Position numbers and translations under genes: made by a program
NCBI GenBank assembly: GCA_041666305.1
Contig: JBAYHD010000002.1
Location: forward strand, 684-64,683
DNA from: Minisyncoccota bacterium
Lineage (GTDB): Bacteria; Patescibacteriota; Minisyncoccia; Phycocordibacterales; Phycocordibacteraceae
Length of the DNA: 64,000 nt
Reading direction: 5' to 3'
Notes under the pieces: model-generated
Databases searched by the model: none
Seen by the model: only the letters and a program-made list of their open reading frames with translations
Told to the model about the DNA's origin: nothing
Part shown: positions 555-57,129 of the stretch, one piece after another
How positions within the stretch are numbered: position 1 is the first letter of the stretch
Layout: the number at the start of each line of letters is the position of its first letter

Positions 555-3401
555 TTGGGAAAGCATATGGCGTACGACCACAAACACATTGAGAAGAAAT
601 GGCAGGAGAAATGGAAAAAGGACGAACCATATCGCTCAACCGAAGATACCGATAAGAAAAAAGCGTATGTGCTTGATATGTTCCCATACCCGTCAGGGGA
701 GGGGCTTCATGTGGGCCATCCGCGCGGATACATCGCGACCGATATTTATTCTCGCATGAAGCGCATGCAGGGGTACTCGGTGCTCCACCCGATGGGATGG
801 GACGCATTCGGTTTGCCGGCGGAAAATTATGCGCTCAAAAATAAAGTGCATCCGCGCGTTGCCGTGGAGAAGAACATTTCGAATTTCAAACAACAGCTCG
901 CGCACATCGGATTTGATTATGACTGGTCGCGCGAGATAAACACGACCGATCCCGCGTACTACAAATGGACTCAGTGGATATTCCTCAAAATGCTCGAGCA
1001 TAAGCTCGCGTTCCAATCGAACGAGCCCATCAACTGGTGCCCCTCATGCAAGACCGGACTCGCGAATGAAGACCTCGACGGTCCTGTGTGCGAACGCTGC
1101 GGCACTACGGTTGAGAAGAAAAGCTTGCCGCAGTGGGTGCTCAAAATTACCGACTACGCCGATCGCATGCTCGCAGACCTTGATTCGCTCAACTGGCCGG
1201 AGCACATCAAAGAAGCCCAACGGAATTGGATAGGGCGTTCCGAAGGTGCGGAAATTAGCTTTCCGATAGTCGGGAGCGAGGAAACCGTAACCGTATTCAC
1301 GACGCGACCGGACACGCTCTATGGTGCGACGTATCTGGTGCTCGCGCCGGAGCATCGCTTTCTCACCGATAAAAATTATGGGTTTACGAAATCCTTAATT
1401 AATGCAGATGACGTGCGGGCGTACGTCGCGCAGGCGGCAACGAAGACAGAGATAGAACGCGGCGCAGAAGGAAAAGAGAAGACCGGCGTGAAGCTCGAGG
1501 GCGTCAGGGCGCTCAATCCCGCGACGAAAGAAGAAATTCCTATCTACGTTGCCGACTACGTACTCGGTGGGTACGGTACAGGCGCCATCATGGCAGTCCC
1601 CGCGCACGACGAACGCGACTACGAATTTGCAAAGAAATTTAATATTCCGGTCCGGAACGTTGTTGAGCCGGTGCTTGTACAAACGACTGGTTCCGCTGCA
1701 TTCCGGGAGAACGAGCCTGTCCAAGACAGCAACGGCATCATTGCCATCGTGAAGCACTGGGGCGACGAGAAGTATATGGGCTTATATTGGTCGAAGGCAG
1801 AATGGGGCACACTTCTTACCGGCGGCATTGATGAAGGCATGGCGCCTGAAGAAACCGCCTTGAAAGAGATCCGCGAAGAAACCGGCTATACCGACGCGCG
1901 CATCGTTGAATCGTTCGGCACTATTCATAGCAAGTATTACCACGCACCGAAAGAACTCAATCGGTTCGGGCATGCACCGACATTTTATATCGAGCTCAAA
2001 AGCGATGCTCGCGAGGAAGTTTCTCCGGAAGAACTCGCCAAACACGAACTCCATTGGCTCACGAAAGAAGAATTGAAGTCATTTTTGACGGCAACATCAC
2101 ATTTGCAGGCGCTCGCGTTTTTGGATTCGCATGTCTATACCGGCTCCGGATTGCTTGCGAATTCGGGAGATTTTTCAGGCAAGGATAGCGAGCAGGCAAA
2201 ATGGGATATTACGCAAGCCGTGGGAGGGAAGCGCGTGACGCGCTACAAACTCCGCGATTGGGTTTTCTCACGCCAGCGCTATTGGGGCGAGCCGATACCG
2301 GTCATTCATTGTCCGAAAGACGGCGTGGTGCCAGTTCCGTATGAAGATTTGCCGGTCGTATTGCCGGAGGTGGAGTCGTATGAGCCGACCGGCACCGGCG
2401 AATCGCCCCTGGCCACCATCGAATCGTGGGTCAACACGAAGTGTCCGAAATGCGGCGAGCCGGCGAAGCGCGAGACGAACACGATGCCGCAATGGGCGGG
2501 CTCGTCGTGGTATTACCTGCGCTTCATGGACCCGCATGACGCAACCCAGCTTGTGTCCACGAAAAATGAAAAGTATTGGGCGCCGGTCGACGTGTACGTG
2601 GGCGGCGATCACGCCGTGCGCCATCTCATCTATGCGCGCTTCTGGCACAAGTTCCTCTATGATATCGGCGTAGTGAGCACGCAAGAACCGTTCGCGCGGC
2701 TGGAGTTCCTCGGTTTCATCCTTGCAGAAGACGGTCGCAAAATGAGCAAGCGCTACGGCAATGTCATCAATCCGGACGACGTCATCGCGGAATACGGCGC
2801 TGATGCGTTCCGTATCTATGAAATGTTCATGGGGCCATTCGAGAACACAACGAACTGGAGCACTGCTTCCATTGCCGGTACATCGCGTTTCGTGGAGCGA
2901 TTGTGGAATCTGCATGAGACGGTCACGGATGCGCCGGTTCCGGAGCTCGAGCCGCTCCTGCATCGCACCATTCAGAAAATAGGCGCGGACATCGAGTCGT
3001 TCAAATTCAATACCGCCGTGAGCCAAGCGATGATATTCCTGAACAAGATCGAAGAAGTCGGGAACATAGGAAAAGAGCAGTGGCGTTCTTTCATTTGCAT
3101 CCTTGCGCCACTGGCACCCCACTCCACAGAGGAATTGTGGGAGCTCTCCGGAGAAACTTCCTCCATCCACCTCGCTCCGTGGCCTTCATTTGACGAAAAG
3201 ATTATTGCCGCGAGCCATAGCGAGATCGTCGTGCAGGTGAACGGCAAGCGCCGCGGCTCTATTACGCTCCCTGCGGATGCCGTCGAAGAAGCCGCACTGG
3301 CGGCTGCAAAGGCTCTGCCGACCATCATGGCTATGCTCGACGGGAACGAGCCGAAACGGGTGATTTACGTGCCAGGCAGGATCATAAATCTTGTGGTATA
3401 G
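555..3401 (+). CDS. leuS: leucyl-tRNA synthetase carrying an internal Nudix-hydrolase-like insertion
   Basis: HIGH motif (HVGH), KMSKR motif, CP1 editing signatures (TTRPDT, YGTGAIMAVPAHDERD), YKLRDWVFSRQRYWGEPIP; about 130 extra residues (aa ~385-520) with Nudix fold and box GGIDEGMAPEETALKEIREETGY. Confidence 0.9.
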   Translation: MGKHMAYDHKHIEKKWQEKWKKDEPYRSTEDTDKKKAYVLDMFPYPSGEGLHVGHPRGYIATDIYSRMKRMQGYSVLHPMGWDAFGLPAENYALKNKVHPRVAVEKNISNFKQQLAHIGFDYDWSREINTTDPAYYKWTQWIFLKMLEHKLAFQSNEPINWCPSCKTGLANEDLDGPVCERCGTTVEKKSLPQWVLKITDYADRMLADLDSLNWPEHIKEAQRNWIGRSEGAEISFPIVGSEETVTVFTTRPDTLYGATYLVLAPEHRFLTDKNYGFTKSLINADDVRAYVAQAATKTEIERGAEGKEKTGVKLEGVRALNPATKEEIPIYVADYVLGGYGTGAIMAVPAHDERDYEFAKKFNIPVRNVVEPVLVQTTGSAAFRENEPVQDSNGIIAIVKHWGDEKYMGLYWSKAEWGTLLTGGIDEGMAPEETALKEIREETGYTDARIVESFGTIHSKYYHAPKELNRFGHAPTFYIELKSDAREEVSPEELAKHELHWLTKEELKSFLTATSHLQALAFLDSHVYTGSGLLANSGDFSGKDSEQAKWDITQAVGGKRVTRYKLRDWVFSRQRYWGEPIPVIHCPKDGVVPVPYEDLPVVLPEVESYEPTGTGESPLATIESWVNTKCPKCGEPAKRETNTMPQWAGSSWYYLRFMDPHDATQLVSTKNEKYWAPVDVYVGGDHAVRHLIYARFWHKFLYDIGVVSTQEPFARLEFLGFILAEDGRKMSKRYGNVINPDDVIAEYGADAFRIYEMFMGPFENTTNWSTASIAGTSRFVERLWNLHETVTDAPVPELEPLLHRTIQKIGADIESFKFNTAVSQAMIFLNKIEEVGNIGKEQWRSFICILAPLAPHSTEELWELSGETSSIHLAPWPSFDEKIIAASHSEIVVQVNGKRRGSITLPADAVEEAALAAAKALPTIMAMLDGNEPKRVIYVPGRIINLVV

Positions 3402-9732: not shown

Positions 9733-9743
9733 GGGGCTGTGGC

Positions 9744-9873
9744 CCGGTAGAACAACATAGCATTGCTCATTGTGTCTAGCGTTAAATATACCTTTGACTT
9801 TCTATGTTTTTATCGGTCTCGAACCTTATTATTCGATTTGAGCGTAGACACGATGCTATGTTGTTCTAACCGG
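9744..9873. mobile_element. structured palindromic repeat element (MITE/Correia-like), copy 1 of 4
   Basis: TIRs CCGGTAGAACAACATAGCAT... / ...ATGCTATGTTGTTCTAACCGG; begins 12 nt after the mnmA stop; same family at 22006, 54208, 56994. Confidence 0.6.
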
Positions 9874-9891
9874 GTGGTATATTATTACCGC

Positions 9892-10302: not shown

Positions 10303-11168
10303 CGACTCTCCCGGTCATCATTAAAGCGGACGGGTCGAAGGAAGTATTCGATCCGACGCGTCTCGTCATATCGCTGCGTCGAGCGGGTGCCGGAGAACAC
10401 GCGGCCGAACGCATAACGAATGCGATCACTGAAACGGTTGTGCCAGGCGTTACCTCAAAAGAAATATATTCGCGCGCGTTCGCGCTCCTTCGCAAAGAGG
10501 CGCGTCCAGTGGCCGCACGCTACGCGCTTCGGCGCGCGCTTCTGGACCTCGGCCCTACGGGGCATCCGTTCGAAGATTTCATTTCGCATTTGTATCGTGC
10601 GGAGGGTTGGCAGGTTGAAACGCGCAAGATCATTAAAGGGAAGTGCGTATCGCACGAGGTCGATTTTTATGCATCTCATCCCGATCAGAAGGAATACATC
10701 GCCGCCGAGCTCAAATATCATAATGACCCCGGATATAAGACCGATCTCAAGAACGCGCTGTATGTGAAGAGCCGTTTTGATGATATTTTTGCATGCGACC
10801 CGAGCGTGCGCGGCTGTCCGATAAACCGCGGCATCTTGGTTACCAATACCAAATTCACTTCCGAAGCCATTGCGTATGCTGAATGCGCCGGTGTCGAGCT
10901 CCTTGGATGGAGCTATCCGTTGAACGATAGTTTGTACACGCGCATGAGCCGTTCAAAGATATATCCGATAACGACGGTCACGGGATTATCCCGCGCAGAA
11001 AAGACCATTCTTCTTGACCGGGGGATCATTGCTGTCGATGAGATATTGCAGGATAGGCGGGTGCTTGACCCGCTCCACCTTGACAGCGAACGGGTCGGCG
11101 AGCTTCTGGCGGAGATAGAAGGGTTGCTTGCGCTGCCTTCGGCCGCTCATGATATTGTTTCCGTATGA
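10299..11168 (+). CDS. ATP-cone domain fused to Mrr-like (PD-(D/E)xK) restriction endonuclease domain
   Basis: N-terminal VIIKADGSKEVFDPTRL...EIYSRAFALL fits ATP-cone; C-terminal EVDFYA...AAELKYH fits Mrr_cat D/ExK core. Confidence 0.6.
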   Translation: MTTLPVIIKADGSKEVFDPTRLVISLRRAGAGEHAAERITNAITETVVPGVTSKEIYSRAFALLRKEARPVAARYALRRALLDLGPTGHPFEDFISHLYRAEGWQVETRKIIKGKCVSHEVDFYASHPDQKEYIAAELKYHNDPGYKTDLKNALYVKSRFDDIFACDPSVRGCPINRGILVTNTKFTSEAIAYAECAGVELLGWSYPLNDSLYTRMSRSKIYPITTVTGLSRAEKTILLDRGIIAVDEILQDRRVLDPLHLDSERVGELLAEIEGLLALPSAAHDIVSV

Positions 11169-11259
11169 CCCGACACACTCAAATAGCCTTGCGAGACGAT
11201 GATGGAGCTCGTAACGCGCTCAAGCGAGGATTACCGGAAGGCCTTCGAGGCCGTTTAGT

Positions 11260-11742
11260 GTGACGGGTATGATGCGATTTTCAACAGAGTCTTTTGTCGC
11301 CGGAGTCATGCTGGGGGCGGTGTTGGTGGGGGCATGGTTTTTCGGCGGAGACATACGTTCACTGCCGTTCGCGTCTTCAGGATTTCTCGCGACGTCCACG
11401 GCATCCTCGTTCCAGGAGAGCGGAGCGGTATCCGTTGTTGATCAGCCGGCTGGTTCCAGCGTTGCGGTTGAATCCGTTACCGTGCCGCCGCCGGGCGTGT
11501 GGGTTGCGGTGCGCGAAGTGAACGGCGTCGATCTCGGCAACGTACTCGGTGCGGCGCGCGTGGTTGGTCCGCACAGCGACGTCATTGTTTCGCTTTTGCG
11601 CCCCACCGAGCCGAAGCGCTCCTACGCGATAGAACTCTACCGTGATGATAATAATGGGGCGTTTGATCCTTCGGCGAACAGCGTGTACGTTGATTTTGAA
11701 ACCGGTGCGCGCGTGGTCTCCTACTTCACGACTACTCAATGA
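11260..11742 (+). CDS. hypothetical secreted protein
   Basis: N-terminal hydrophobic helix; no family recognised. Confidence 0.4.
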   Translation: MTGMMRFSTESFVAGVMLGAVLVGAWFFGGDIRSLPFASSGFLATSTASSFQESGAVSVVDQPAGSSVAVESVTVPPPGVWVAVREVNGVDLGNVLGAARVVGPHSDVIVSLLRPTEPKRSYAIELYRDDNNGAFDPSANSVYVDFETGARVVSYFTTTQ

Positions 11743-12786: not shown

Positions 12787-13451
12787 ATGTAAAAATAGAT
12801 CCGTCATGGGCGAGGCACTTGAAGGGCGAATTTGAAAAGGCTTATTTTGAAGAGCTGACGAGATTCGTGAAGAATGAATACAAAAACGGCGCCGTGTACC
12901 CAGCGCCGAAGAATATTTTTCGTGCATTCGACCTGTGCCCGTTCGAAAAAGTGAAAGTGGTTATCCTCGGACAGGACCCGTACCACGGCGTTCGTCAGGC
13001 GAACGGCCTCGCGTTCGCCGTGGAGAGCACCGAGAAAATTCCACCGTCGCTTCAAAATATTTTTAAAGAAATTGAGAGCGATCTTCACGGGCCGCTTGTG
13101 CATGCAGACGGCGACCTCTCGCGCTGGGCGAAACAGGGCGTGTTGCTCCTCAATGCAACACTCACCGTGCGAGCCGGCATAGCCGGCTCGCACCAGGAGA
13201 AGGGGTGGGAGCAATTTACCGACGCTGTCATCAAAGCGCTTTCGGAGGAACACGAACATCTCGTTTTTATGCTCTGGGGCAATTATGCGAAGGCGAAGGG
13301 CGCACACATCGACCGCAGTAAGCACCTCGTGCTTGAAGCTCCGCATCCCTCGCCATTCTCCGCCGCCTCCGGCTTTTTCGGCTGTAAGCACTTCTCTAAA
13401 GCAAATGACTACCTCGTCGCTCACAACGAAACCCCGATAGACTGGTTGTGA
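12783..13451 (+). CDS. ung: uracil-DNA glycosylase (family 1)
   Basis: [19 protein letters not shown] motifs; full length 222 aa. Confidence 0.85.
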   Translation: MNVKIDPSWARHLKGEFEKAYFEELTRFVKNEYKNGAVYPAPKNIFRAFDLCPFEKVKVVILGQDPYHGVRQANGLAFAVESTEKIPPSLQNIFKEIESDLHGPLVHADGDLSRWAKQGVLLLNATLTVRAGIAGSHQEKGWEQFTDAVIKALSEEHEHLVFMLWGNYAKAKGAHIDRSKHLVLEAPHPSPFSAASGFFGCKHFSKANDYLVAHNETPIDWL

Positions 13452-14029: not shown

Positions 14030-14374
14030 GACGGAGATTTAACACGATGGGCCGAGCAGGGCGTATTGCTCCTCAATGCCACGCTCACCGTGCGAGCCGG
14101 CATAGCCGGCTCGCACCAGGAGAAGGGGTGGGAACAATTCACCGATGCCGTTATCAAGGCACTCTCAGAAGAGCGCGAGCATCTCGTTTTCATGCTCTGG
14201 GGCAATTATGCGAAGGCGAAGGGCGCACACATCGACCGCAGTAAGCACCTCGTGCTTGAAGCTCCGCACCCCTCGCCATTCTCCGCCGCATCCGGCTTTT
14301 TCGGGTGCAAACATTTCAGCCGTGCGAACGAGTATCTTATTTCCCACAACGAAACCCCCATCGACTGGCTCTAG
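14030..14374 (+). pseudogene. orphan duplicate of the ung 3' half (about 115 codons, no proper start)
   Basis: aligns to ung 13107-13451 at roughly 90% nt identity with mostly synonymous differences (e.g. gacctctcgcgc vs gatttaacacga both DL(S/T)R); opens directly after the stop of the 13493 gene in the same frame. Confidence 0.7.
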
Positions 14375-21995: not shown

Positions 21996-22005
21996 CCCAG
22001 TTGAC

Positions 22006-22135
22006 CCGGTAGAACAACATGGCATCGTGTCTTTTGCTCCCAACAATGCAATGTCAACAAAGGCTTGTTGCTCCGGAAATTTTGATGGATAAATGGACCA
22101 TGACACAAGGAGCAATGCCATGTTGTTCTCACCGG
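22006..22135. mobile_element. structured palindromic repeat element, copy 2 of 4
   Basis: TIRs CCGGTAGAACAACATGGCAT / ATGCCATGTTGTTCTCACCGG; flanked by perfect direct repeat GTTGAC (22000-22005 and 22136-22141). Confidence 0.65.
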
Positions 22136-22197
22136 GTTGACGGCTTTTCGGATACCTGCTAGATTGATGTGGTAACTGCACTGGTAATGAATAGCAA

Positions 22198-22437
22198 ATG
22201 AGCGACGCCGACGATACAAAAGCAACGGTGACTGGAACCGTTGAAGAGGTATTGCCGAATTCGCTTTTCCGCGTTCGTCTTCCGGCAGTTCTAGAAGGAG
22301 AAGAAGGCGAGCTCAAGCTCGCCTACCTTGCAGGGAAAATGCGTTTGCACCGTATCCGCGTTCTGATGGGCGATCAGGTGGAAATGGTGATGGATCCCTA
22401 CGGGGGCCGTGCGAGGATAGTTCGCCGATTAACCTAA
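22198..22437 (+). CDS. infA: translation initiation factor IF-1
   Basis: S1-like OB fold motifs (GTVEEVLPNSLFRV, GKMRLHRIRVLMGDQVEM); small internal insertion. Confidence 0.85.
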   Translation: MSDADDTKATVTGTVEEVLPNSLFRVRLPAVLEGEEGELKLAYLAGKMRLHRIRVLMGDQVEMVMDPYGGRARIVRRLT

Positions 22438-26610: not shown

Positions 26611-26696
26611 TGGTGACGTGGCAGAGCGGTCTATTGCACTCTTCTTAGGAGAGAGCGGTCTGTGTAGGGCCCGCGGGTTCGAATCCCGCCGTCACC
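26611..26696 (+). tRNA. tRNA-Leu (anticodon TAG), long variable arm
   Basis: acceptor GGTGACG/CGTCACC, anticodon loop cuUAGga, T-arm GGTTCGAATCC; CCA not encoded; TGGTATACT extended -10 about 125 nt upstream. Confidence 0.8.
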
Positions 26697-26739
26697 GCTA
26701 GTTATACACAGGGCTTGATTTACGCATCTTGCCGGTGGT

Positions 26740-26915: not shown

Positions 26916-26944
26916 AGAGCAAGAAACGGGGACACCCACCATTA

Positions 26945-26990
26945 ATTTCCAAACAAAAACCTCGCGTCATGCCCCGGGCGACAGGGATCC
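26945..26990 (+). repeat. island direct repeat (a): AATTTCCAAACAAAAACCTCGCGTCATGCCCCGGGCGACAGGGATCC
   Basis: five same-orientation copies at 26945, 27538, 27681, 29505, 30172. Confidence 0.65.
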
Positions 26991-27000
26991 TGATGGGGAG

Positions 27001-27519
27001 TTATTCCAGATTGTTCAAATAGCACCTAATGTCGGCACTCGACTTCAAGACAATTACTTTATCTTTGTGCTCATTAATAAATAGCATCAGTTTCGGTTTG
27101 GTTCTAAATTGGCGACGAATAATCTCGAGGAAGAAGGCAATCTCGTGTCGGATATTAAGCTCCGGATGTCTCTCCGACGGATTGAATATGCGCTGAGCGT
27201 GATTAAACAATCTGCGCCAAAGCGGAATGTCGAGAAAAATAATGACGTCGGCCCTTTTTGCGATTTCTGGTTGCACAGAACGCGTGTATAAACCGTCGGA
27301 GACCCACGAGTCTGCAGCAATCGCAGTTGCCGTCTTTTGCCTAACGAAGGTTCGCACTCGGTCGCGCTCTTCAATGGGGGCACCATCCTTCATCTGATTT
27401 CCGCCCGCCTCGAACCAGAATCGGTCGAGGTGGATGTGTGGTATAGATAATTTTTCACTAATCGCTCGCGCGAGAGTAGATTTCCCGCTCGCGGGTAACC
27501 CAACAATGCTTATACGCAT
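27001..27519 (-). CDS. P-loop NTPase / nucleotide kinase-like protein (FlaR/adenylate-kinase-like)
   Basis: Walker A GLPASGKST close to N-terminus (start taken at MRISIVG); bracketed by direct repeats (a) and (b); only minus-strand gene in island. Confidence 0.55.
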   Translation of the reverse strand: MRISIVGLPASGKSTLARAISEKLSIPHIHLDRFWFEAGGNQMKDGAPIEERDRVRTFVRQKTATAIAADSWVSDGLYTRSVQPEIAKRADVIIFLDIPLWRRLFNHAQRIFNPSERHPELNIRHEIAFFLEIIRRQFRTKPKLMLFINEHKDKVIVLKSSADIRCYLNNLE

Positions 27520-27537
27520 TGCGTAAGAATACATTAA

Positions 27538-27580
27538 ATAATTCCCAAACAAAAACCTCGCGTCATGCCCCGGCGACCTT
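27538..27580 (+). repeat. island direct repeat (b)
   Basis: ATTCCCAAACAAAAACCTCGCGTCATGCCCCGGCGACC. Confidence 0.65.
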
Positions 27581-27601
27581 CCGTCTCAGTGAAGGTAGTA
27601 T

Positions 27602-27637
27602 GTTCGTTAACTCTAACGGTCGTATCAATTAACGAAC
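27602..27637. repeat. conserved hairpin GTTCGTTAA-N18-TTAACGAAC with AACGGTCGT loop core (copy A)
   Basis: perfect 9-bp stem; near-identical second copy at 35800-35835. Confidence 0.55.
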
Positions 27638-27680
27638 AGCAGATTGCCTACGCTGCGCAAGGTTCGACCTTTCTCAAAAT

Positions 27681-27726
27681 AATTTCCAAACAAAAACCTC
27701 GCGTCATGTCCCCGGCGACAGGGGTC
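27681..27726 (+). repeat. island direct repeat (c)
   Basis: AATTTCCAAACAAAAACCTCGCGTCATGTCCCCGGCGACAGGGG. Confidence 0.65.
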
Positions 27727-27824
27727 TAGAGCAGGAGTATTTGACTGAATGACTTAAGAGCATATGATTCCAGTCAGACACACAAGTAGTTCCCACCAAT
27801 GCTTGCAGACAGAAGGAGTTCGTC

Positions 27825-28313
27825 ATGAACAGTTCTATTAGTCCAAAAAAGCTTCGTCATGCCATAAATCAGTATTTCGATCAGACCCCGGCCACTGAGG
27901 TCGTGCGACGTGCAGAAGAACTGAAGCCGCAGGAGATGAAGTCTAGGGAAATGGTACTGTTTGGACCTCCCGGCCTCGTCGCCAAGGTATACAAAACGTT
28001 CAAGATCGACTGCGACGGAAACGTGATTTTCGACGGCATCCGCATTGCCGGATTGAGCATCAAGCTTCCGAAGGGAAGGATCAATGATATACACTGCCGT
28101 TTGCGCCTGCACCACCCGGAGACGGGAGACTTGTTCGAGACGACTGGCTACGTTTCAGACGCGTTCGTGTACGAGGTGTTGCAGTGTTGGGATGGCAAAG
28201 ATACCGTGACCATCGCCGGCAAGAAGATGGTGCATCAACCAGTTCGTGGCAATTCTGTGCCCCAGCAGTATTACTTGCTGGTTGAGGTCATAGAGGATAC
28301 ATCGCCGTTCTAA
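27825..28313 (+). CDS. hypothetical protein
   Basis: ORF with protein-like composition; no family recognised. Confidence 0.4.
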   Translation: MNSSISPKKLRHAINQYFDQTPATEVVRRAEELKPQEMKSREMVLFGPPGLVAKVYKTFKIDCDGNVIFDGIRIAGLSIKLPKGRINDIHCRLRLHHPETGDLFETTGYVSDAFVYEVLQCWDGKDTVTIAGKKMVHQPVRGNSVPQQYYLLVEVIEDTSPF

Positions 28314-28450
28314 AGCCGTTCGCAGAAGTCCGTTCTGCGAACGGCTTTTGCTTTTTGAGGTTCAACCTTGCTAAAAAACAGTCGATTCTCGAACTGTGAT
28401 ATATTCGGCTCTAGAAAGTCCCGCAACCAATAGAAAAGGAGGTAGTTAGT

Positions 28451-28849
28451 ATGGCAACGAGAGAAGCGGCATCTGGCCGCATCCAGATACTCAAGACACC
28501 AGCTTGGGACGCTCCACTTGAGGCCCGCGGAGCGTTTGTGATGAAAGCAGCGCTTCCGTGTTATCCGTATGTCGGGTATCCGTCCGGCGTAGTGAGGGAC
28601 GTCGTGACTCGCAGGGAAATGGAGATCAAGAAAATAGGCGTCATCGTGCCGCAGGACAAAGCATTACAGGTCCTCTGGCAGAATAATCCGGTGGCGGCCA
28701 CATGGTGGATAGACCGCGGCTTCCCGAAACGCAGAGGATGCTTTTTCTTCACTGAAGGCGAGTTCACCATCGTCAGCGGCGTCCCCGATGATCCGGTATG
28801 GGTTTTTGAGAACATACGGGTTGGGCACTGGCGCCAAATGCTCCCCTGA
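28451..28849 (+). CDS. hypothetical protein
   Basis: ORF preceded by aaaggaggtag RBS; no family recognised. Confidence 0.45.
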   Translation: MATREAASGRIQILKTPAWDAPLEARGAFVMKAALPCYPYVGYPSGVVRDVVTRREMEIKKIGVIVPQDKALQVLWQNNPVAATWWIDRGFPKRRGCFFFTEGEFTIVSGVPDDPVWVFENIRVGHWRQMLP

Positions 28850-29023
28850 AAGCGACGTGCGACGAGACGGAAAGGGTCTTCCTTTCCGTCTTTTTTGTTT
28901 TTAGCCCTCTCCACGTCTGATGCAGAAACAGTTGACAATAATATATTCTTGTGCTATATATGGAGGCAAGACTGGCGACTCAGGCTTGTCGCGTTCATTC
29001 AATCAATCAAGGGAGAAAAAATT

Positions 29024-29455
29024 ATGGTAAATCCTGACGCATTCTTCAGGAATTCTTTCGCTCAATTCAGAATTACGCTCCGCAATCTGCTCGGGAGGCA
29101 TGGGGTCTTAACCAATCCCGGCTCGAACGATGATGAAATAGTAGCTGGCTTCGAGGAGCTTCTTGCGCGGCGGCAAACCGAATTGGACGAAGGCAATCTG
29201 ATCTTCATCACCGAGGCACTGATGATGTTCCATATGCGGATTGCCTACAACACACCTTCGTTTGCAGTAAATTTTGTTTGCGCAAAAGCAACAGACGAAA
29301 TGACACAAGAAGCTCTTCGCAAACTCTTGCGTGTGAGTCTTCAAGACCCAAGATTCCGAGAGCGATTCAACGAGCATTTCTCGAAACACCCAATGCAAGA
29401 ATTCCGTGAGGAAGGATGGAAATGGTTATGTGAGATCTTAGCTTGGGAAACGTGA
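29024..29455 (+). CDS. hypothetical protein
   Basis: start at MVNPDAFF after gggagaaaaaatt RBS-like stretch (track ORF begins 28895); followed by terminator. Confidence 0.35.
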   Translation: MVNPDAFFRNSFAQFRITLRNLLGRHGVLTNPGSNDDEIVAGFEELLARRQTELDEGNLIFITEALMMFHMRIAYNTPSFAVNFVCAKATDEMTQEALRKLLRVSLQDPRFRERFNEHFSKHPMQEFREEGWKWLCEILAWET

Positions 29456-29500
29456 GTTCCGCCCTCAACGAAAACCGTTGGAGGGCGGTTTTCATTTTTA
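29455..29500 (+). terminator. rho-independent terminator
   Basis: ccgccctcaacgaaaaccgttggagggcgg then TTTTCATTTTT. Confidence 0.65.
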
Positions 29501-29504
29501 GGCT

Positions 29505-29546
29505 CAACACAAAAAACTCGCGTCATTCCCCCGGCGACAGGGATCC
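29505..29546 (+). repeat. island direct repeat (d)
   Basis: CAACACAAAAAACTCGCGTCATTCCCCCGGCGACAGGGATCC immediately after terminator. Confidence 0.6.
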
Positions 29547-29654
29547 TCAGTCGAGTAGAGGGGCTTGACTTACATACTGTTTCGTAGTATCGTACGCACA
29601 GAGGTTTCTTCTCTACCTTAAAGAGACGCCCTTTTCCAGAATGAAGGAGAGATC

Positions 29655-30116
29655 ATGCATCAGTATGTCACCTGCACTAAATGCAACGGGTCCGGCAGAG
29701 TAAGGAGAACCAGATGGTTCGGGACGAAAGACTGTCCCTCCTGCGACGGCATAGGGAAAGTTCCCAAAGCCGTTACCAAGGCAACGTCGGTAAGAAGGAC
29801 CGAAGAACGGGCCGTAACCCACTCCGCTCCGGCAAATGACGACGGCGATATCATCGCGGGCGTGGCGCTCATGGTTGCGGCTTTAGACCGCGGGAATACC
29901 ATCGCGGTTGCGCAGCCCGAAGAAGCTTTCAAAGGTGGCGGCGGCGAAATGGGCGGTGGCGGAGCTAGCGACTCATGGGATAAACCCGAGGAGCGCGCGG
30001 CAGAACCGGAGCCTGTTGCGGAAGTCGTTACGACGTTCGAATCAAGCGAACCCGCGTCAGAATCGGCCGCTTCAGATTCTTCAAGTTCATCGGACTCGGG
30101 ATCAAGCGACACGTGA
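29655..30116 (+). CDS. zinc-ribbon protein (CxxC x2, DnaJ-finger-like CxxCxGxG) with acidic Ser-rich disordered tail
   Basis: CTKCNGSGRV...CPSCDGIGKV; aaggagagatc RBS; C-terminal SDSSSSSDSGSSDT. Confidence 0.45.
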   Translation: MHQYVTCTKCNGSGRVRRTRWFGTKDCPSCDGIGKVPKAVTKATSVRRTEERAVTHSAPANDDGDIIAGVALMVAALDRGNTIAVAQPEEAFKGGGGEMGGGGASDSWDKPEERAAEPEPVAEVVTTFESSEPASESAASDSSSSSDSGSSDT

Positions 30117-30120
30117 ACGG

Positions 30121-30172
30121 CCGCCTCAGCAGTAACGGGAAAACCGTGCTTGCTGAGGCGGTTTTCTTTTTG
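30121..30172 (+). terminator. rho-independent terminator
   Basis: ccgcctcagc...gctgaggcgg then TTTTCTTTTT. Confidence 0.65.
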
Positions 30173-30215
30173 TCCCAATTTCCAAACAAAAACCTCACTT
30201 CATGCTCTGGCGATA
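30172..30215 (+). repeat. island direct repeat (e), most diverged
   Basis: AATTTCCAAACAAAAACCTCACTTCATGCTCTGGCGATATTCC. Confidence 0.5.
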
Positions 30216-30365
30216 TTCCTCAACCCATCTCTGTTGAAATTAGACTTCAACAAGGGGTGGGAATGATTATCCACAGGCCTCCCAGGACACTTGACAAATC
30301 ATGTTCGCTATGCTAGCCTGTACACAGGTCAAACCAGCTTTCCAACCATCTCTGCGGAGGTAGCG

Positions 30366-32556: not shown

Positions 32557-32645
32557 CCGGGAGCATCATACGCTAGACGCGGTAGTATGGGAAACCAACA
32601 AACAAGGTAGGGACTTTTTTGACTATGCATCGAATTTCGGGCATA

Positions 32646-32724
32646 CCCCATATGACAACTTTTATATTGATAACGAAATAATTTTTGCTAGCACGGTTGA
32701 TAAAAGTTGTCATACGGGGCATAG
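32646..32724 (+). promoter_or_regulatory. 18-bp inverted repeat (candidate operator) overlapping a TTGATA...CATAGT promoter upstream of grpE
   Basis: CCCCATATGACAACTTTT (32646-32663) vs AAAAGTTGTCATACGGGG (32702-32719), 17/18 complementary, 38-bp spacer; -35 TTGATA 32696-32701, -10 CATAGT 32719-32724. Confidence 0.4.
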
Positions 32725-32731
32725 TGGAGAG

Positions 32732-33283
32732 ATGAAGGAATGGCATGGAGATGATATCGAACCTGAAAATATAATCATCGAGCCCGAAACGGGTGACGAG
32801 ACGGGAGAAGTACGGCCCGAAGAGAAAATCGCAAAGATGCGCGAAGAACTTTCCGCGTGCCGGAAGGACAAACAGGAATACATGGACGGCTGGCAGAGAG
32901 CCAAAGCGGACTACGTGAACGCCCTGAAGCGCTTTGAAACCGACGTCAAGGCATCGGAGTTTAGAGGTAAGGTGAAGGCCGTAGAGACGCTTCTGCCGGC
33001 CTTCGACGCTCTCGAGCGCTCCAAGGAGCACGGGGAATTGCCCGAGGGATTCATGGCCATTGCGAAGCAGCTAGAGGGAGCATTCGCCGCACTTGGACTG
33101 GAGGAGACGGGGAAGGTCGGCGAGAAATTTGACCCCGCGTATCATGAGGCATTGGGCCAGGACAAGGTTGAAACGGCGGACGAAGATGGTATAATTACCG
33201 CCATACTAGAGAAAGGTTGGAGAGTGGGCGACATCATTATTCGACCGGCGAAAGTGCGTGTTGGGCATTTCGCTAGCAATTAG
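32732..33283 (+). CDS. grpE: nucleotide exchange factor GrpE
   Basis: C-terminal GrpE motifs (LLPAFDALERS, KFDPAYHEA, RPAKVRV); GGAGAG RBS before ATG 32732; track ORF 32459 N-terminus overlaps opposite gene. Confidence 0.8.
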   Translation: MKEWHGDDIEPENIIIEPETGDETGEVRPEEKIAKMREELSACRKDKQEYMDGWQRAKADYVNALKRFETDVKASEFRGKVKAVETLLPAFDALERSKEHGELPEGFMAIAKQLEGAFAALGLEETGKVGEKFDPAYHEALGQDKVETADEDGIITAILEKGWRVGDIIIRPAKVRVGHFASN

Positions 33284-35856: not shown

Positions 35857-35894
35857 TGTCTCAATTTTTGTCCTATAGGACAAAAATTGAGACA
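35857..35894. promoter_or_regulatory. perfect 17-bp-stem palindrome TGTCTCAATTTTTGTCC-TATA-GGACAAAAATTGAGACA upstream of dnaJ
   Basis: perfect dyad read directly; about 100 nt upstream of the dnaJ promoter. Confidence 0.55.
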
Positions 35895-35994
35895 TCGGCC
35901 TCAGGTGCTATTTCTTTTTGCATACAAAATACAAGAGGTGTATAACCCCGTAGTAGATTTTCGCAATGCGCCGGAGGCGCGGGACGCAGGCCTT

Positions 35995-36021
35995 TTGCGA
36001 AAATTCACTACAGGGTATAAT
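35995..36021 (+). promoter_or_regulatory. dnaJ promoter TTGCGA -15- TATAAT, near-leaderless
   Basis: -10 TATAAT 36016-36021 only 8 nt before ATG 36030; no SD. Confidence 0.4.
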
Positions 36022-36029
36022 CAACACAA

Positions 36030-37139
36030 ATGGCAACAACAAAGGATTATTACAGCGTGCTGGGCGTCGATAAGAAGGCGAGCAAGGACGACATCAAGAA
36101 GGCGTTCCGTAAGCTCGCGCACAAATATCACCCCGACAAGGGCGGCACTGATGAGGCGAAATTCAAGGAGATAACCGAGGCGTACTCGGTGCTCTCCGAT
36201 GACCGTAAGCGCCGTGAATATGATACCTACGGGCAAGCATTTGCGGGCGGGCAACCTGGTTCGGCGCCCCAAGGGGGCCCCTTCGGGGGATTCGACTTCT
36301 CTCAATTCCAACAAGGCTTCCCCCAAGGGGGCCCCTTCGGGGGGCAGGGTGGCGTTGATTTTGATTTTGGTGATATTTTCGGCGACATCTTCGGCGGTCG
36401 CGGGCAACAGCGCACACCGCGCGGCCGCGATATTTCCATCGATTTGGAAGTCTCCTTTAAAGAGGCGGCTCTCGGCACAAGCCGAAGCGTACTCATCGGA
36501 AAGGTCTCCACCTGCTCGCTTTGCCACGGCACGGGAGCGAAGCCGGGCACTGAATTGGAATCCTGCACAACCTGTAACGGAAGCGGCAAAATTCACGAGA
36601 CGCGCAATTCCATACTCGGCCAGTTCAGCTCGGTGCGCGCCTGCACCATTTGTGAAGGCACCGGCAAGGTGCCGAAGGAAAAATGCACGGAGTGCAAAGG
36701 TCACGGCGTTCGCCGCAAGGAGGAAGAACTGAAAATAAATATCCCCGCCGGCGTGGATAACGGTGAAATGATTCGCATGCCGCAAAAGGGCGAGGCAATC
36801 AAAGCTGGCATCGCGGGCGATCTGTACGTGAAGATACACGTGAAGCCGCATGCGATCTTTCGTCGCGACGGAGCGAATTTGATCATGACCCTGCCGGTAA
36901 AATTGACCGATGCACTGCTCGGCACCACTGTTTCAATAGAAAGTTTGGAAGGCAAAACGCTTGAAGTAAAAATCCCGCCGATGAAGCGCGCCGAGGAACT
37001 TCTGCGCGTGGCAGGGAAGGGCATTCCGGCCGAAGGCGGCCGCGGCGACCTCATCATCCGCCTCGAGGCCGCACTTCCGCACAAGCTCTCGAGCAAAGCG
37101 AAGAAGGCTGTTGAAGACTTGAAGAACGAAGGGCTCTAA
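36030..37139 (+). CDS. dnaJ: molecular chaperone DnaJ
   Basis: J domain HPD (KYHPDKG), G/F region, four CxxCxGxG zinc-finger repeats, C-terminal domain. Confidence 0.9.
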
Positions 37140-51555: not shown

Positions 51556-52992
51556 ATGAACATACTCCTTAAAAAAGGAACCGGAGCGAGCGTCCCGAAA
51601 GGGTACGTGCGCATACGGATAACGGAAGAGTCAAAAGGCACGAAGCGTCTCGTGAAAGAGCAGGGGATAGAAACGCTTGAGCTTGGCGCGGGGAAATATG
51701 CAGAAATGAACATGCGCAGGTTCATAGTGCTTTGTCGTTCCCTGGTGCAGTCGGCAAAAAAGAACAAGCTCAAAAAAATCGCAATTCAATTCGATGATAC
51801 GGTGCAACTGTTCAAGAAACTCAAGGGCGTACCGCCAGAAGAACTCATACAACTTGCGGCCGAAAATTTCGAGATGGCGAATTTCGAATTCAATATATTC
51901 AAAACGAAACCAAAAGAAGGCTGGCACGCAGTGGAAGAAATACTTTTATACGGACGTTCATCTGCAGCGCTTGAAAAAGCATTGCGAAAGGGGCAGGAGA
52001 TCGGAAAAGCGGTGAACGCCTGCCGCACGCTCGCAAACACTCCCGGCGGCGACATGACCCCGGCTTTACTCGCAAAATCCGCGAAGAGCGCGATGAAAGG
52101 CCTGCCGGTCAAAGTAACCACCCTCGGCACGAGAGAAATGAAAAAACTCGGTATGGGAGCCCTGCTCGGCGTTGCGAAAGGCTCCACCGAAGCGCCGACG
52201 TTCACCATTTTAGAGTACAAAGGAGGGAAAGGTGCTCCCATTGTGCTTGCGGGAAAGGGCATCACGTTCGATAGTGGAGGGCTCAATTTGAAGCCTTCAA
52301 GCGGAATGTATGAGATGCATATGGATATGTCGGGCGCTGCCGCAGTCATTCATGCGGTAGCACTCGCTGCACGACTGAAACTGAAACGACACGTTATCGG
52401 CCTTATTCCGGCGGCGGAGAATATGCCGGGTAACAATGCCGTCCGCCCGGGCGATGTGTTGAAGTCGCTTTCGGGGAAAACAATTGAAATACTCGACACT
52501 GATGCGGAAGGCAGGCTCATCCTCGCGGACGCGCTCACGTATGCAAAACGATTCAAACCTGCGGTGGTGATCGATGCGGCGACCTTGACCGGAGCAGCGA
52601 TGTCGGCACTCGGACTTCATGCGAGTGCGCTCCTCACGCGCGATGACGCCCTTGCAGAACAGATCTCGCGCGCCGGCGAAGCATCGGGTGATTATGTGTG
52701 GCGATTGCCGCTCTGGGACGAATACGAAGACCGTGTTAAAGGAGAATTCGCCGATATCAAGAATGTCCCCGGCGGTTCCACGAGCCGATACGGCGGTGCG
52801 ATCGACGGCGGGATGTTCCTCTGGCAATTCGCAAAGGAACTTGATTGCCCGTGGGCGCATCTGGATATTGCTCCTCGCATGACTTCCGCGCCGAATGACG
52901 AACTTGCAAAAGGCGCCGCGGGAACGCCGGTGCGACTCCTGATACACTTTATAGAACATGCCCCGTATGATTACTCAACAACAAAGCGATAA
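51556..52992 (+). CDS. pepA: leucyl aminopeptidase (M17)
   Basis: NTPGGDMTP, DTDAEGRL, GAAM motifs. Confidence 0.85.
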   Translation: MNILLKKGTGASVPKGYVRIRITEESKGTKRLVKEQGIETLELGAGKYAEMNMRRFIVLCRSLVQSAKKNKLKKIAIQFDDTVQLFKKLKGVPPEELIQLAAENFEMANFEFNIFKTKPKEGWHAVEEILLYGRSSAALEKALRKGQEIGKAVNACRTLANTPGGDMTPALLAKSAKSAMKGLPVKVTTLGTREMKKLGMGALLGVAKGSTEAPTFTILEYKGGKGAPIVLAGKGITFDSGGLNLKPSSGMYEMHMDMSGAAAVIHAVALAARLKLKRHVIGLIPAAENMPGNNAVRPGDVLKSLSGKTIEILDTDAEGRLILADALTYAKRFKPAVVIDAATLTGAAMSALGLHASALLTRDDALAEQISRAGEASGDYVWRLPLWDEYEDRVKGEFADIKNVPGGSTSRYGGAIDGGMFLWQFAKELDCPWAHLDIAPRMTSAPNDELAKGAAGTPVRLLIHFIEHAPYDYSTTKR

Positions 52993-53048
52993 TATGAGAT
53001 TGTACAGATTACTAGCAACCGCAGTTGAGGCGAATAATCATACGGGGT

Positions 53049-54174: not shown

Positions 54175-54207
54175 CACTCTAATTACATCCCCAGAAGAAG
54201 CCGTTGC

Positions 54208-54340
54208 CCGGTAGGACAACTTGGCATCAGGTTTTTGCTTCGTACAACATTCAATCACGTTTCCATTGGTAAGAAGCCATAAACAAGATCCCTTGCCAAA
54301 ACAAACTATCCCCAGAAGCAATGCCAAGTAGTCCTCACCG
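54208..54340. mobile_element. structured palindromic repeat element, copy 3 of 4 (with compensatory arm changes)
   Basis: TIRs CCGGTAGGACAACTTGGCAT / ATGCCAAGTAGTCCTCACCGG; flanking CGTTGC at 54202-54207 and 54342-54347. Confidence 0.65.
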
Positions 54341-54380
54341 GGCGTTGCCGTAGAGGTGCGGCACGACTATACTGAGACCA

Positions 54381-56987: not shown

Positions 56988-56993
56988 CCATGC

Positions 56994-57127: not shown

Positions 57128-57129
57128 GT

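What the first reader, a model, noticed from the sequence alone, without database searches (positions are those of the whole stretch)
22000..22141. Four-copy family of ~132-bp structured palindromic elements (MITE/Correia-like) with TIRs and flanking direct repeats
Four loci (9744-9873, 22006-22135, 54208-54340, 56994-57127) share ~25-bp terminal inverted repeats CCGGTAG(A/G)ACAAC(A/T)TGGCAT ... ATGCCA(T/A)G(T/A)TGT(C/T)CTCACCGG. Each encloses ~80 bp that also contains a short internal hairpin (e.g. CAACAAaggcTTGTTG in copy 2, GGCAACaagcgttcGTTGCC in copy 4), so each element can fold into one long imperfect stem-loop. Copy 2 is bounded by a perfect 6-bp direct repeat GTTGAC. Copy 3 is bounded by CGTTGC, offset by one nt. 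Copy 1 is bounded by GTGG(c/t). These flanks look like target-site duplications. All copies are intergenic and begin within 6-12 nt of a stop codon (mnmA, 20781-gene, 53773-gene, mraY). No transposase is present in the window, so they would be non-autonomous. I do not recognise this TIR sequence from any described element.
Basis: seen in the sequence. Interest (0 to 1): 0.85.

Follow-up and report, generated by a model that had tools for sequence, protein, structure and literature searches.

The report
Hairpin mini-transposons in a tiny-genome bacterium
The four repeats are real copies of an undescribed ~135-bp hairpin-forming mobile DNA element of Patescibacteria (CPR) that duplicates 4 bases on insertion, sits right against start codons or promoter boxes of essential genes (the duplication rebuilds the signal it splits), and is conserved far better than a parasitic repeat should be.

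Summary
Four 132-136-bp elements lie at 9743-9874, 22005-22136, 54207-54342 and 56993-57128. They share 21/22-nt terminal inverted repeats, with one extra base always in the right arm. The MITE reading is supported. Close relatives have empty sites at the positions of copies 2, 3 and 4, and of a fifth copy just outside the window. Each empty site holds a single copy of the flanking tetranucleotide (TTGA, GTTG, TATG, TATG). The target-site duplication is therefore 4 bp, not 6.

About 31 distinct copies occur in Parcubacteria and Saccharibacteria assemblies. In 14 of 21 independent sites the right-hand duplicate is the start codon of the downstream gene. In others it is the -35 or extended -10 box.

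Two inner helices (b:b', c:c') covary and are interleaved, like a pseudoknot. At orthologous sites the arms are 98-100% identical while neutral positions are about 50% identical.

No transposase lies in the window. The 4-bp duplication and CCC...GGG ends point to an IS1380/piggyBac-like enzyme, which is a lead only. Neighbouring RAYT/REP systems do not match. At least four further short elements with related ends are in the window.

The family is undescribed but belongs to a known kind. What maintains its conservation is unknown.

The parts
22005..22136 (+). Family-A element, copy 2 (the focal finding), 132 bp. Parts: left arm a 22005-22025, b 22027-22031 (GTGTC), c 22035-22040 (TGCTCC), variable interior 22041-22101, b' 22102-22106 (GACAC), c' 22109-22114 (GGAGCA), right arm a' 22115-22136, with the bulged C at 22130.
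   Evidence: (96.3 bits); empty site in L123, L121 and L122
22001..22004 (.). Left copy of the 4-bp target-site duplication TTGA of copy 2
   Evidence: the empty site has a single TTGA
22137..22140 (.). Right copy of the TSD TTGA of copy 2. It forms the first four bases of the -35 hexamer of a promoter-like site, TTGACG-17-TAGATT (22137-22165), upstream of infA (22198-22437).
9743..9874 (+). Family-A element, copy 1, 132 bp. Its interior modules are in inverted order (a-c-b...c'-b'-a'), but the bulge is still in the right arm. Flanking repeat (G)TGG: 9740-9742 and 9875-9877. The right copy is the TGn of an extended -10, TGGTATATT, 8 nt before ATG 9892.
   Evidence: No relative covering this site was available, so the empty-site test could not be made.
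54207..54342 (+). Family-A element, copy 3, 136 bp. TSD GTTG at 54203-54206 and 54344-54347, with one extra C at 54343. The right copy overlaps the -35 of TTGCCG-17-TATACT (54345-54373) upstream of scpB (54381). Helix b is degraded in this copy.
   Evidence: empty site in L118 and L120
56993..57128 (+). Family-A element, copy 4, 136 bp, between the mraY stop (56985-56987) and ftsW. TSD CATG at 56989-56992 and TATG at 57129-57132. The right ATG (57130) is the ftsW start codon. A 47-codon ORF runs from the left ATG through the whole element and ends in an ATGA overlap with the ftsW ATG.
   Evidence: empty site in L115, L118 and L120
32646..32719 (.). Related short element B (74 bp; ends CCCCATATGACAACTTTTAT / ATAAAAGTTGTCATACGGGG). 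TSD CATA at 32642-32645 and 32720-32723. It splits the -10-like box CATAGT upstream of grpE (32732).
   Evidence: empty site L122 cgggCATAgtaggcacATG
52961..53047 (.). Related short element C (87 bp; ends CCCCGTATGATTACTC / GAATAATCATACGGGG). TSD CATG at 52957-52960 and TATG at 53048-53051. The right ATG (53049) is the scpA start. The insertion changes the last codons of the upstream M17 peptidase ORF.
   Evidence: no element at this junction in L120
35946..36015 (.). Related short element D (70 bp; ends CCCCGTAGTAGATTTTCGCAA / TTGCGAAAATTCACTACAGGG). Flanking repeat TATA(A) at 35941-35945 and 36016-36020. The right copy is the -10 box TATAAT, 8 nt before the dnaJ ATG (36030).
   Evidence: no element in L131
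11169..11267 (.). Related element G (99 bp; ends CCCGACACAC / GTGTGACGGG). Flanking repeat TATG(A) at 11164-11168 and 11268-11272. The left copy keeps the stop codon of the upstream gene and the right copy keeps the start codon (11269) of the downstream gene.
   Evidence: empty site L122 ccgTATGAagc

Best explanation
These are copies of a non-autonomous DNA transposon family (a MITE) of Patescibacteria. A trans-acting enzyme, not encoded in the window, joins the CCCGG...CCGGG ends into a staggered 4-bp cut (occasionally 5 bp). The cut falls at short T-rich targets: YATG, NTTG, TTGA, TATA. This leaves a direct repeat on each side of the element.

In these compact genomes, only certain insertions survive. 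They are the ones in which the right-hand repeat rebuilds the signal that was split: a start codon, a -35 or -10 box, or an ATGA stop/start overlap. That is why the element is found jammed against those signals.

The two ends differ. The right arm has one extra base, and the inner modules are ordered a-b-c on the left and b'-c'-a' on the right. All copies have the same orientation relative to the asymmetric target and to the downstream gene.

As a single strand the element folds into a 21-bp terminal stem, two short interleaved helices and a variable tip. The strand could be RNA, when the element lies inside a transcription unit, or DNA.

Shown: repetition, TIRs, TSD, filled/empty polymorphism, no coding capacity, covariation, and conservation in situ.

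Inferred: the class of enzyme (DDE, IS1380/piggyBac-like, from the 4-bp TSD and CC..GG ends), the survival filter, and any role for the fold. One possible role is that the closed hairpin keeps upstream translation or transcription signals next to the rebuilt start codon.
For: - Repetition far beyond chance. About 31 distinct copies occur in Kaiserbacteria, Adlerbacteria, Paceibacterota, other Patescibacteria and Saccharibacteria MAGs and metagenomes.
- Empty sites exist for copies 2, 3 and 4, for a fifth copy on the parent-like contig (L133 20043-20179, cysS start), and for elements B and G. Each empty site has a single copy of the flanking repeat.
- The repeat differs between copies of similar subfamily: TTGA for copy 2 and TATG for copy 4. 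A true duplication predicts this.
- Of 21 independent sites, 14 are YATG at a start codon. Promoter-like hexamers start at or next to the right end of copies 2 and 3.
- No ORF is conserved, because the spacing between the two start codons falls in all three frames. No transposase, integrase or HUH domain was found in about 60 window ORFs.
- Covariation: 14 pairs change on both sides, and 0 of 500 shuffles reach the observed values. In a partner-permutation test 0 of 2000 permutations reach them, for b:b' and for c:c'.
- IS1380 and piggyBac share 4-bp TSDs and 5'-CC..GG-3' termini (PMC10045372, read).
Against: - No autonomous partner or transposase was found. There is none in the window, none within about 4-10 kb of any copy, and no hit in viral contigs.
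- A plain selfish MITE does not explain the conservation. At orthologous sites the arms are 98-100% identical and the interior 73-88% identical. The third codon positions of the adjacent gene are 49% identical and the upstream spacer 54%.
- Uniform orientation at about 21 sites is unusual for a TIR/DDE element.
- Two independent sites of one subfamily share the same repeat, GTTG. This leaves some room for an element-specified target.
- The registers of c and b' in the covariation table were chosen by best complementarity within short windows. This inflates pairing, although the permutation control uses the same procedure.
Confidence: 0.75

Rival explanations
1. Exapted functional module. The element arrived by transposition, but host selection now keeps it as a structured nucleic-acid signal. 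The near-invariant, bulged 21-bp stem would be a protein recognition site. The pseudoknot-like core and the closed hairpin would act in the mRNA leader or intercistronic region. Possible roles are processing, translational coupling or reinitiation, and insulation from read-through of the upstream gene.
For: - Arms are 98.7% identical, inner modules 84% and interior 73%, against 49% at synonymous positions, across seven deeply diverged genomes at one orthologous site. Two more site groups show the same pattern.
- Compensatory changes occur in three helices.
- Orientation relative to the downstream gene is constant at all sites.
- Every element that lies in frame with the downstream gene has a stop codon (TAA or TGA made by the bulge base at -9, or TAG at -15) before the real start codon. 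This suggests that the left start codon is translated.
- G.U pairs outnumber A.C pairs on the sense strand by 16 to 9.
Against: - Copies sit at different places relative to transcripts: upstream of a -35 box, inside a -10 box, or after a start codon. No single cis-RNA role fits all of them.
- Sequence invariance inside a perfect helix suits double-stranded DNA recognition better than RNA recognition.
- The downstream genes are functionally unrelated.
- Close relatives do without the element at the same sites.
- The G.U excess is weak.
- Template switching in inverted repeats can mimic compensatory change.
Confidence: 0.3
2. REPIN-like element mobilised by a RAYT (Y1/HUH) transposase acting on a single-stranded DNA hairpin.
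For: - RAYT genes are common in this clade: 464 homologues, some named RayT by JGI.
- One RAYT gene sits in the very spacer that copy 3 occupies in the window (L118).
- REPINs also have highly conserved arms, a spacer that keeps only its pairing through compensatory changes, and long vertical persistence (PMC3116915; abstracts).
- The arms contain GTAG.
Against: - The four RAYT genes I inspected are flanked by short perfect palindromes (TGTGCATACCnGGTATGCACA, CATGTACATACCAGGTATGTACATG, TGTGCAAGTCnGACTTGCACA). These do not match the arms and are absent from the window.
- Each arm is not itself a palindrome. Module b covaries with the distant b', not with the arm.
- No RAYT lies near any copy.
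- The flanking repeats vary from copy to copy and match on both sides. This points to a staggered cut, which HUH enzymes do not make.
Confidence: 0.08
3. IS200/IS605-style insertion 3' of a tetranucleotide, with the right-hand 'repeat' carried as part of the element rather than created by duplication.
For: - Filled and empty sequences alone cannot separate the two models.
- Orientation is fixed relative to an asymmetric target.
- One subfamily shows GTTG at two independent sites.
Against: - At least seven different tetranucleotides occur, each matched on both sides. They include different ones in similar subfamilies: TTGA for copy 2 and TATG for copy 4.
- No internal sequence was found that tracks the repeat.
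- The interior shows no complementarity to the flanks beyond chance.
- The element has long TIRs, not separate subterminal hairpins at each end.
Confidence: 0.05
4. Ancestral conserved terminator or cis-regulatory hairpin that was never mobile.
For: A strong hairpin follows a stop codon. It is conserved at some sites.
Against: Sites are empty in relatives whose neighbouring proteins are 86-94% identical. The flanking repeats are duplicated exactly. There is no T-run after the stem. Unrelated loci in different phylum-level lineages carry the element.
Confidence: 0.02

Closest known systems
MITEs derived from IS1380-family / piggyBac-like transposons
   Same: 4-bp target-site duplication. Termini are 5'-CC...GG-3' (here CCCGG...CCGGG). 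Insertion and absence are precise: the empty site equals one copy of the repeat. The element is small, non-coding and TIR-bounded.
   Different: No IS1380-like transposase or full-length element with these ends was found. The target is not TTAA. The ends are asymmetric and orientation is uniform. The interior carries covarying helices.
REPINs / REP sequences with RAYT transposases
   Same: Hairpin of about 100-140 nt with two highly conserved arms. The spacer keeps its pairing through compensatory changes. The element is extragenic, persists for long periods and is inherited vertically. RAYT genes are present in the same clade.
   Different: The arms are not REP palindromes. The REPs that flank local RAYT genes are different sequences. 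Clear 4-bp duplications flank each copy. No RAYT association was seen.
Correia elements (NEMIS/CREE) of Neisseria, and ERIC/RUP/BOX-type small palindromic repeats
   Same: TIR-bounded hairpin elements of about 100-150 bp lying between genes. They are co-transcribed and can alter expression of neighbouring genes.
   Different: By my recollection, not tested here, Correia elements duplicate TA, carry an IHF site and occur only in Neisseria. There is no sequence similarity. Here the duplicated target is 4 bp and usually a start codon or a promoter hexamer.
Rickettsia palindromic elements (RPE)
   Same: Palindromic mobile elements tolerated in small, compact genomes at positions that touch coding sequences.
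   Different: By my recollection, not tested here, RPEs insert in frame inside ORFs and are translated. These elements sit just outside the retained ORF and show no frame conservation.

Membership tests
MITE (non-autonomous TIR transposon) | Terminal inverted repeats bounding a short (<~500 bp) sequence | tested here: met
   21/22-nt arms bound elements of 131-137 bp. 14 of 21 arm pairs are invariant across 27 copies.
MITE (non-autonomous TIR transposon) | Target-site duplication of fixed length whose sequence varies between copies | tested here: met
   The duplication is 4 bp: TATG, CATG, CTTG, GTTG, TTGA, CGAG. A single copy is present in the empty sites.
MITE (non-autonomous TIR transposon) | Insertion polymorphism (filled versus empty orthologous sites) | tested here: met
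   Copies 2, 3 and 4, the cysS copy, and elements B and G all have empty sites in relatives.
MITE (non-autonomous TIR transposon) | No transposase encoded; multiple copies per genome | tested here: met
   No conserved ORF. Five family-A copies in about 72 kb of one genome. No transposase domain in the window.
MITE (non-autonomous TIR transposon) | A cognate autonomous element with the same ends | tested here: inconclusive
   None was found in about 1 Mb of fetched loci.
IS1380 / piggyBac superfamily derivative | 4-bp TSD and 5'-CC..GG-3' termini (PMC10045372) | tested here: met
   Ends are CCCGG...CCGGG and the TSD is 4 bp.
IS1380 / piggyBac superfamily derivative | Mobilised by a DDE transposase of that family | not testable with these tools
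   No candidate protein was available to test, and the protein searches were exhausted.
REPIN / REP-RAYT system | Each arm is a REP: a short imperfect palindrome of its own | tested here: not met
   Module b pairs with the distant b', not with the arm. The arm stays constant while b changes to GGGGA or GTGCA.
REPIN / REP-RAYT system | The cognate RAYT gene is flanked by the same repeat | tested here: not met
   Four RAYT loci are flanked by unrelated perfect palindromes. These palindromes are absent from the window. No RAYT lies in any element locus. Only four of 464 RAYTs were sampled.
Correia element (Neisseria) | TA duplication and a characteristic 26-bp TIR (features recalled from memory) | tested here: not met
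   The duplication is 4 bp and the TIR sequence is different.
IS200/IS605-derived PATE | No TSD; a fixed target tetranucleotide on the left only; separate subterminal hairpins at each end | tested here: not met
   The tetranucleotides vary and match on both sides. The two ends pair with each other.
Integron attC site | R''-L''...L'-R' nested pairing with RYYYAAC/GTTRRRY cores, in cassette arrays next to an integrase | tested here: not met
   The neighbouring genes are housekeeping genes, no integrase is present, and the inner helices are interleaved rather than nested.
Any Rfam RNA family | A match to a curated covariance model | tested here: not met
   Only two tRNAs reach gathering score. 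Nothing matches the elements even at E<=5.

The most novel reading that the evidence does not exclude
The elements are more than tolerated parasites. They would be a mobile, host-maintained RNA/DNA module of Patescibacteria whose near-invariant bulged stem is read by a conserved trans-acting protein. Its closed hairpin and pseudoknot would be needed to express the gene behind it. Possible mechanisms are cleavage at the stem base that regenerates a (near-)leaderless mRNA, or a relay of translational coupling through the element. Under this reading, insertion at the start codons of essential genes (ftsW, scpA, cysS, mreB-like, recR-like) is phenotypically silent and then becomes addictive.
Probability: 0.15. 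Interest if true: 0.8.

Novelty: new member of a known kind. Interest (0 to 1): 0.55.

Why it matters
- Patescibacteria have genomes of about 1 Mb and are usually regarded as poor in mobile DNA. Here at least eight small hairpin transposons lie in 64 kb, pressed against the start codons and promoter hexamers of cell-division, chromosome-segregation, chaperone and translation genes.
- The family gives a clean natural example of how a 4-bp duplication lets a transposon split an essential signal without destroying it.
- It offers markers for strain-level population genetics of uncultured CPR bacteria, in the form of filled and empty sites.
- It warns gene callers: ftsW is called 41 codons too long on the parent-like contig because the call starts inside the element.
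- The near-invariant arms and compensatory evolution at sites older than synonymous-site saturation raise the same question as REPINs: can a mini-transposon persist vertically as a beneficial or addictive resident?
- The family provides sequences with which to look for the responsible enzyme.

Tried and rejected
- **Known RNA family.** Rfam gave nothing at gathering score or at E<=5.
- **Riboswitch or ribozyme.** Rejected because the conserved bases lie in a perfect helix, while the linkers and junctions are not conserved.
- **tRNA-like reading of the left arm** (acceptor stem plus D-arm). Rejected because b covaries with b', not with the GACA in the arm.
- **Coding or in-frame insertion, or programmed ribosomal bypass between the two ATGs.** Lengths of 131-137 nt put the two start codons in all three frames, and no stop codon follows the first ATG.
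- **A general 'relay ORF'.** Only about 10 of 22 sites have an ORF spanning the element. I judge this close to what the fixed arm sequences would give by chance, but that expectation is a rough estimate of mine and was not computed.
- **Interior as a guide complementary to the target flanks.** The longest shared words are no better than in cross-site controls.
- **RAYT/REP link.** The flanks of four RAYT genes do not match the arms.
- **Phage origin.** 0 hits in viral contigs.
- **Autonomous copy.** No TIR pair 0.3-4 kb apart in about 1 Mb of loci, apart from one artefact that joins copies 3 and 4.
- **Element tree versus host gene tree at the orthologous site.** No usable signal.
- **Choosing the folded strand from G.U versus A.C counts.** 16 to 9, too weak to decide.
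- **Looking up the window's LeuRS.** No record was found.

Full report
**1. The observation**

The four loci are as described. Their alignment shows a conserved left arm, CCCGGTAGRACAACWTRGCAT, and a conserved right arm, ATGCYAWGTWGTYCTMACCGGG, around interiors that are largely unrelated. The arm pattern with up to 3 mismatches has 7 hits in the window and none in 100 shuffles. The right arm always has one extra base (CT[C/A/G]ACCGGG), so the terminal stem has a single bulge. All copies fold into one long hairpin on either strand, with z scores of -5.3 to -8.4. Rfam finds only two tRNAs in the window, and nothing on the elements even at E<=5.

**2. Distribution**

One scan each of the genome and metagenome collections with the left-arm pattern recovered about 31 distinct full elements of 131-137 bp. 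There was also one 91-bp variant and one 142-bp variant. Hosts are Kaiserbacteria, Adlerbacteria, Paceibacterota, other Patescibacteria, two Saccharibacteria MAGs and related metagenome contigs. Viral contigs gave no hit.

The window belongs to this group. Its FtsW is 78-94% identical to proteins that the sources annotate as Paceibacterota, Kaiserbacteria or Minisyncoccia. A 104-kb ENA contig (ERZ27249449, k141_1313312) carries the same gene arrangement.

A covariance model built from 30 copies finds nothing else of this family in the window except a weak short relative. It does find a fifth copy about 7 kb beyond the window end on the parent-like contig.

**3. It is an insertion with a 4-bp duplication**

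Nearly every copy is flanked by the same four bases on both sides. Homologues of the neighbouring genes gave contigs from close relatives in which the sites are empty.

| Copy | Filled (window or L133) | Empty (relative) | Calls |
|---|---|---|---|
| 4 | ctcaagTAAccATG[136 nt]tATGagaaag | ctcaaaTAActATGaagaag (L115, FtsW 94% identical) | 46; also empty in 47, 48 |
| 2 (focal) | cccagTTGA[132 nt]TTGAcggcttttcgg | cccagTTGAcggcttttcgg (L123, neighbour 88% identical) | 67; also empty in 66, 68 |
| 3 | gccGTTG[136 nt]cGTTGccgtagagg | ggcGTTGccgtagggg | 44, 49 |
| 5th (cysS) | tcTATG[137 nt]TATGgagtgg | aatTATGgagtgg | 107, 108 |

The elements are therefore mobile and leave a 4-bp target-site duplication.

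The repeat differs between copies with similar interiors: TTGA for copy 2 and TATG for copy 4. This argues for a true duplication and against a tetranucleotide carried by the element.

**4. Where they sit**

In 14 of 21 independent sites the repeat is YATG, and the right-hand ATG is the start codon of the downstream ORF. The downstream genes include ftsW, cysS, an mreB-like gene, a recR-like gene, an ftsX-like gene and a methyltransferase.

The other window copies lie against promoter boxes.
- **Copy 2.** The promoter-like site TTGACG-17-TAGATT begins at the first base after the element.
- **Copy 3.** TTGCCG-17-TATACT begins three bases after the element.
- **Copy 1.** Its repeat, (G)TGG, is the TGn of an extended -10, TGGTATATT, read directly from the sequence.

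In each case the right-hand repeat restores the signal that was split. I interpret this as a moderate target preference for T-rich tetranucleotides combined with strong selection in a compact genome. This is inference.

**5. A wider superfamily in the window**

Inverted-repeat scans and direct reading show at least four further short hairpin elements with related ends (CCCC/CCCG...) and 4-5-bp flanking repeats.

| Element | Coordinates | Flanking repeat | Position |
|---|---|---|---|
| B | 32646-32719 | CATA | in the -10-like box before grpE |
| C | 52961-53047 | CATG/TATG | scpA start codon |
| D | 35946-36015 | TATA(A) | the TATAAT box before dnaJ |
| G | 11169-11267 | TATG(A) | an ATGA stop/start overlap |

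Empty sites with a single copy of the repeat were found for B and G. Relatives also lack C and D at the corresponding junctions. The window therefore holds at least eight elements in 64 kb.

**6. Anatomy and covariation**

Inside the arms (a, a') lie two short modules. On the left they are b (GTGTC) and c (TGCTCC). On the right they are b' (GACAC) and c' (GGAGCA). The order is a-b-c...b'-c'-a', so b:b' and c:c' are interleaved. They either form a pseudoknot or are mutually exclusive alternatives.

Both helices change by compensatory substitutions.
- c/c': TGCTTC/GAAGCA, TGCTCT/AGAGCA, TGCTCG/CGAGCG, AGCTC/GAGCT.
- b/b': GTATC/GATAC, GGGGA/TCCCC, GTGCA/TGCAC, GTGCT/AGCAC, GTGTT/AACAC.

On a module alignment 96% of cells pair. 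Fourteen pairs show changes on both sides, and none of 500 shuffles reaches the observed values. When partners are permuted among copies, 0 of 2000 permutations reach the observed values for either helix.

There is one caveat. The registers of c and b' were chosen by best complementarity within short windows, and the copies are related to one another.

G.U pairs outnumber A.C pairs 16 to 9 on the sense strand, which is too weak to name the folded strand. Copy 1 has its interior inverted but its bulge in place. Recombination between the two arms would produce this; that is inference.

**7. Conservation in place**

At one orthologous site, upstream of a methyltransferase gene, seven genomes carry the element.

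| Region | Mean pairwise identity |
|---|---|
| Arms | 98.7% |
| b/c modules | 84% |
| Interior | 73% |
| Third codon positions of the adjacent gene | 49% |
| Upstream spacer | 54% |

Two more orthologous site groups, and one same-subfamily comparison (W3 with L089/L107) that later proved not to be a shared site, give arms 98-100% identical.

A decaying parasite should not look like this. Three explanations remain: host-level selection, repeated re-occupation of the same site, or REPIN-like persistence. I could not decide between them. The element and gene distances did not correlate, but their range was too narrow to be informative.

**8. What moves them**

Pfam finds no transposase, integrase or HUH domain in about 60 ORFs of the window. 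No long element with these ends occurs in about 1 Mb of fetched loci.

A RAYT (Y1) gene lies in a relative in the same spacer that copy 3 occupies, and the family is common in the clade. However, four RAYT genes are flanked by short perfect palindromes that are unrelated to the arms and absent from the window. No RAYT is near any copy.

A 4-bp duplication with 5'-CC..GG-3' ends is the signature shared by IS1380 and piggyBac (PMC10045372). That is my best lead for the enzyme. It is a lead and not a test.

**9. Expression consequences (inference only)**

Several genes here have a -10 box 6-8 nt before the ATG. Examples are dnaJ TATAAT-8-ATG, grpE CATAGT-6-ATG and scpB TATACT-8-ATG. This suggests short or absent leaders.

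An insertion after a start codon leaves the original upstream signals attached to the left ATG. The real start codon then lies about 140 nt away, at the other foot of the hairpin.

In copy 4 an ORF from the left ATG runs through the whole element and ends in an ATGA overlap with the ftsW start. This would preserve translational coupling from mraY. Such an ORF is not general.

All in-frame elements carry a stop codon just before the real start. It is often made by the bulge base (TAA or TGA at -9). This fits the idea that the left ATG is translated. Whether the closed hairpin, a processing event or reinitiation restores expression is unknown.

**10. Verdict**

The family is undescribed as far as Rfam and two full-text literature searches show. 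It is a new member of a known kind of element.

It has three features worth following up: insertion at start codons and promoter hexamers, which the duplication rebuilds; interleaved covarying helices; and strong conservation in place.

Noticed in passing
window 32646-32719, 52961-53047, 35946-36015, 11169-11267: Four further short hairpin elements (B, C, D, G) with related CCCC/CCCG ends and 4-5-bp flanking repeats. They lie at a -10-like box (grpE), the scpA start codon, the dnaJ TATAAT box and an ATGA stop/start overlap. Element C alters the C-terminal codons of the upstream M17 peptidase ORF.
   Followed up: partly
L118 4586-4611 and 5354-5377 (also L127, L129, L131): RAYT (Y1_Tnp) genes of related Parcubacteria are flanked on both sides by short perfect palindromes, e.g. 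GTTGTGCATACC-T-GGTATGCACAAC. This is a classic REPtron layout. In L118 it occupies the same spacer upstream of scpB that copy 3 occupies in the window. In L131 a RAYT sits between grpE and dnaK.
   Followed up: partly
window 26943-30219: Five copies of a ~40-60-nt direct repeat (AATTTCCAAACAAAAACCTCGCGTCATGCCCCGGCGAC...). They are spread over about 3.3 kb of small ORFs without Pfam hits, just downstream of a tRNA at 26612-26697. This may be a variable island or a repeated promoter/leader.
   Followed up: no
window 13107-13406 and 14030-14329: A 300-nt direct repeat, 86% identical, spaced 923 nt apart. It contains a 27-nt perfect-stem hairpin (GTGCGAGCCGGCATAGCCGGCTCGCAC) in both copies. It overlaps the 3' part of the UDG-family gene and the region after the next ORF.
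   Followed up: no
window 60325-60375 and 35857-35894: Two perfect palindromes: one with 25-nt arms and a 1-nt gap, inside the gltX-like ORF region, and one with 19-nt arms and no gap, upstream of dnaJ next to element D.
   Followed up: no
window 555-3401: The leucyl-tRNA synthetase ORF has a NUDIX domain hit (residues 415-511, E 2.5e-10) inserted after the editing domain.
   Followed up: no
window 22137-22197, 54345-54380, 36016-36032, 32720-32734: Promoter -10 boxes lie only 6-8 nt before several start codons (scpB, dnaJ, grpE), with no Shine-Dalgarno motif evident. This suggests that leaderless or near-leaderless mRNAs are common in this organism.
   Followed up: partly
L133 6205-7428 (= window 57007-58230): On the parent-like contig the public gene call for FtsW is 407 aa and starts at an ATG inside the element's left arm. 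Homologues are 365-366 aa, and empty sites show that the true start is the ATG at window 57130.
   Followed up: yes
L093 776-909; L115 4176-4253; L057 6212-6338: More candidate hairpin elements with CCC...GGG ends in relatives. Examples are CACG|CCCGGACACTAAATTCGGCC...|CACG (134 bp) and TGAG|CCCCGTTAGAAAT...|TGAG (78 bp). They suggest a diverse superfamily across the clade.
   Followed up: no
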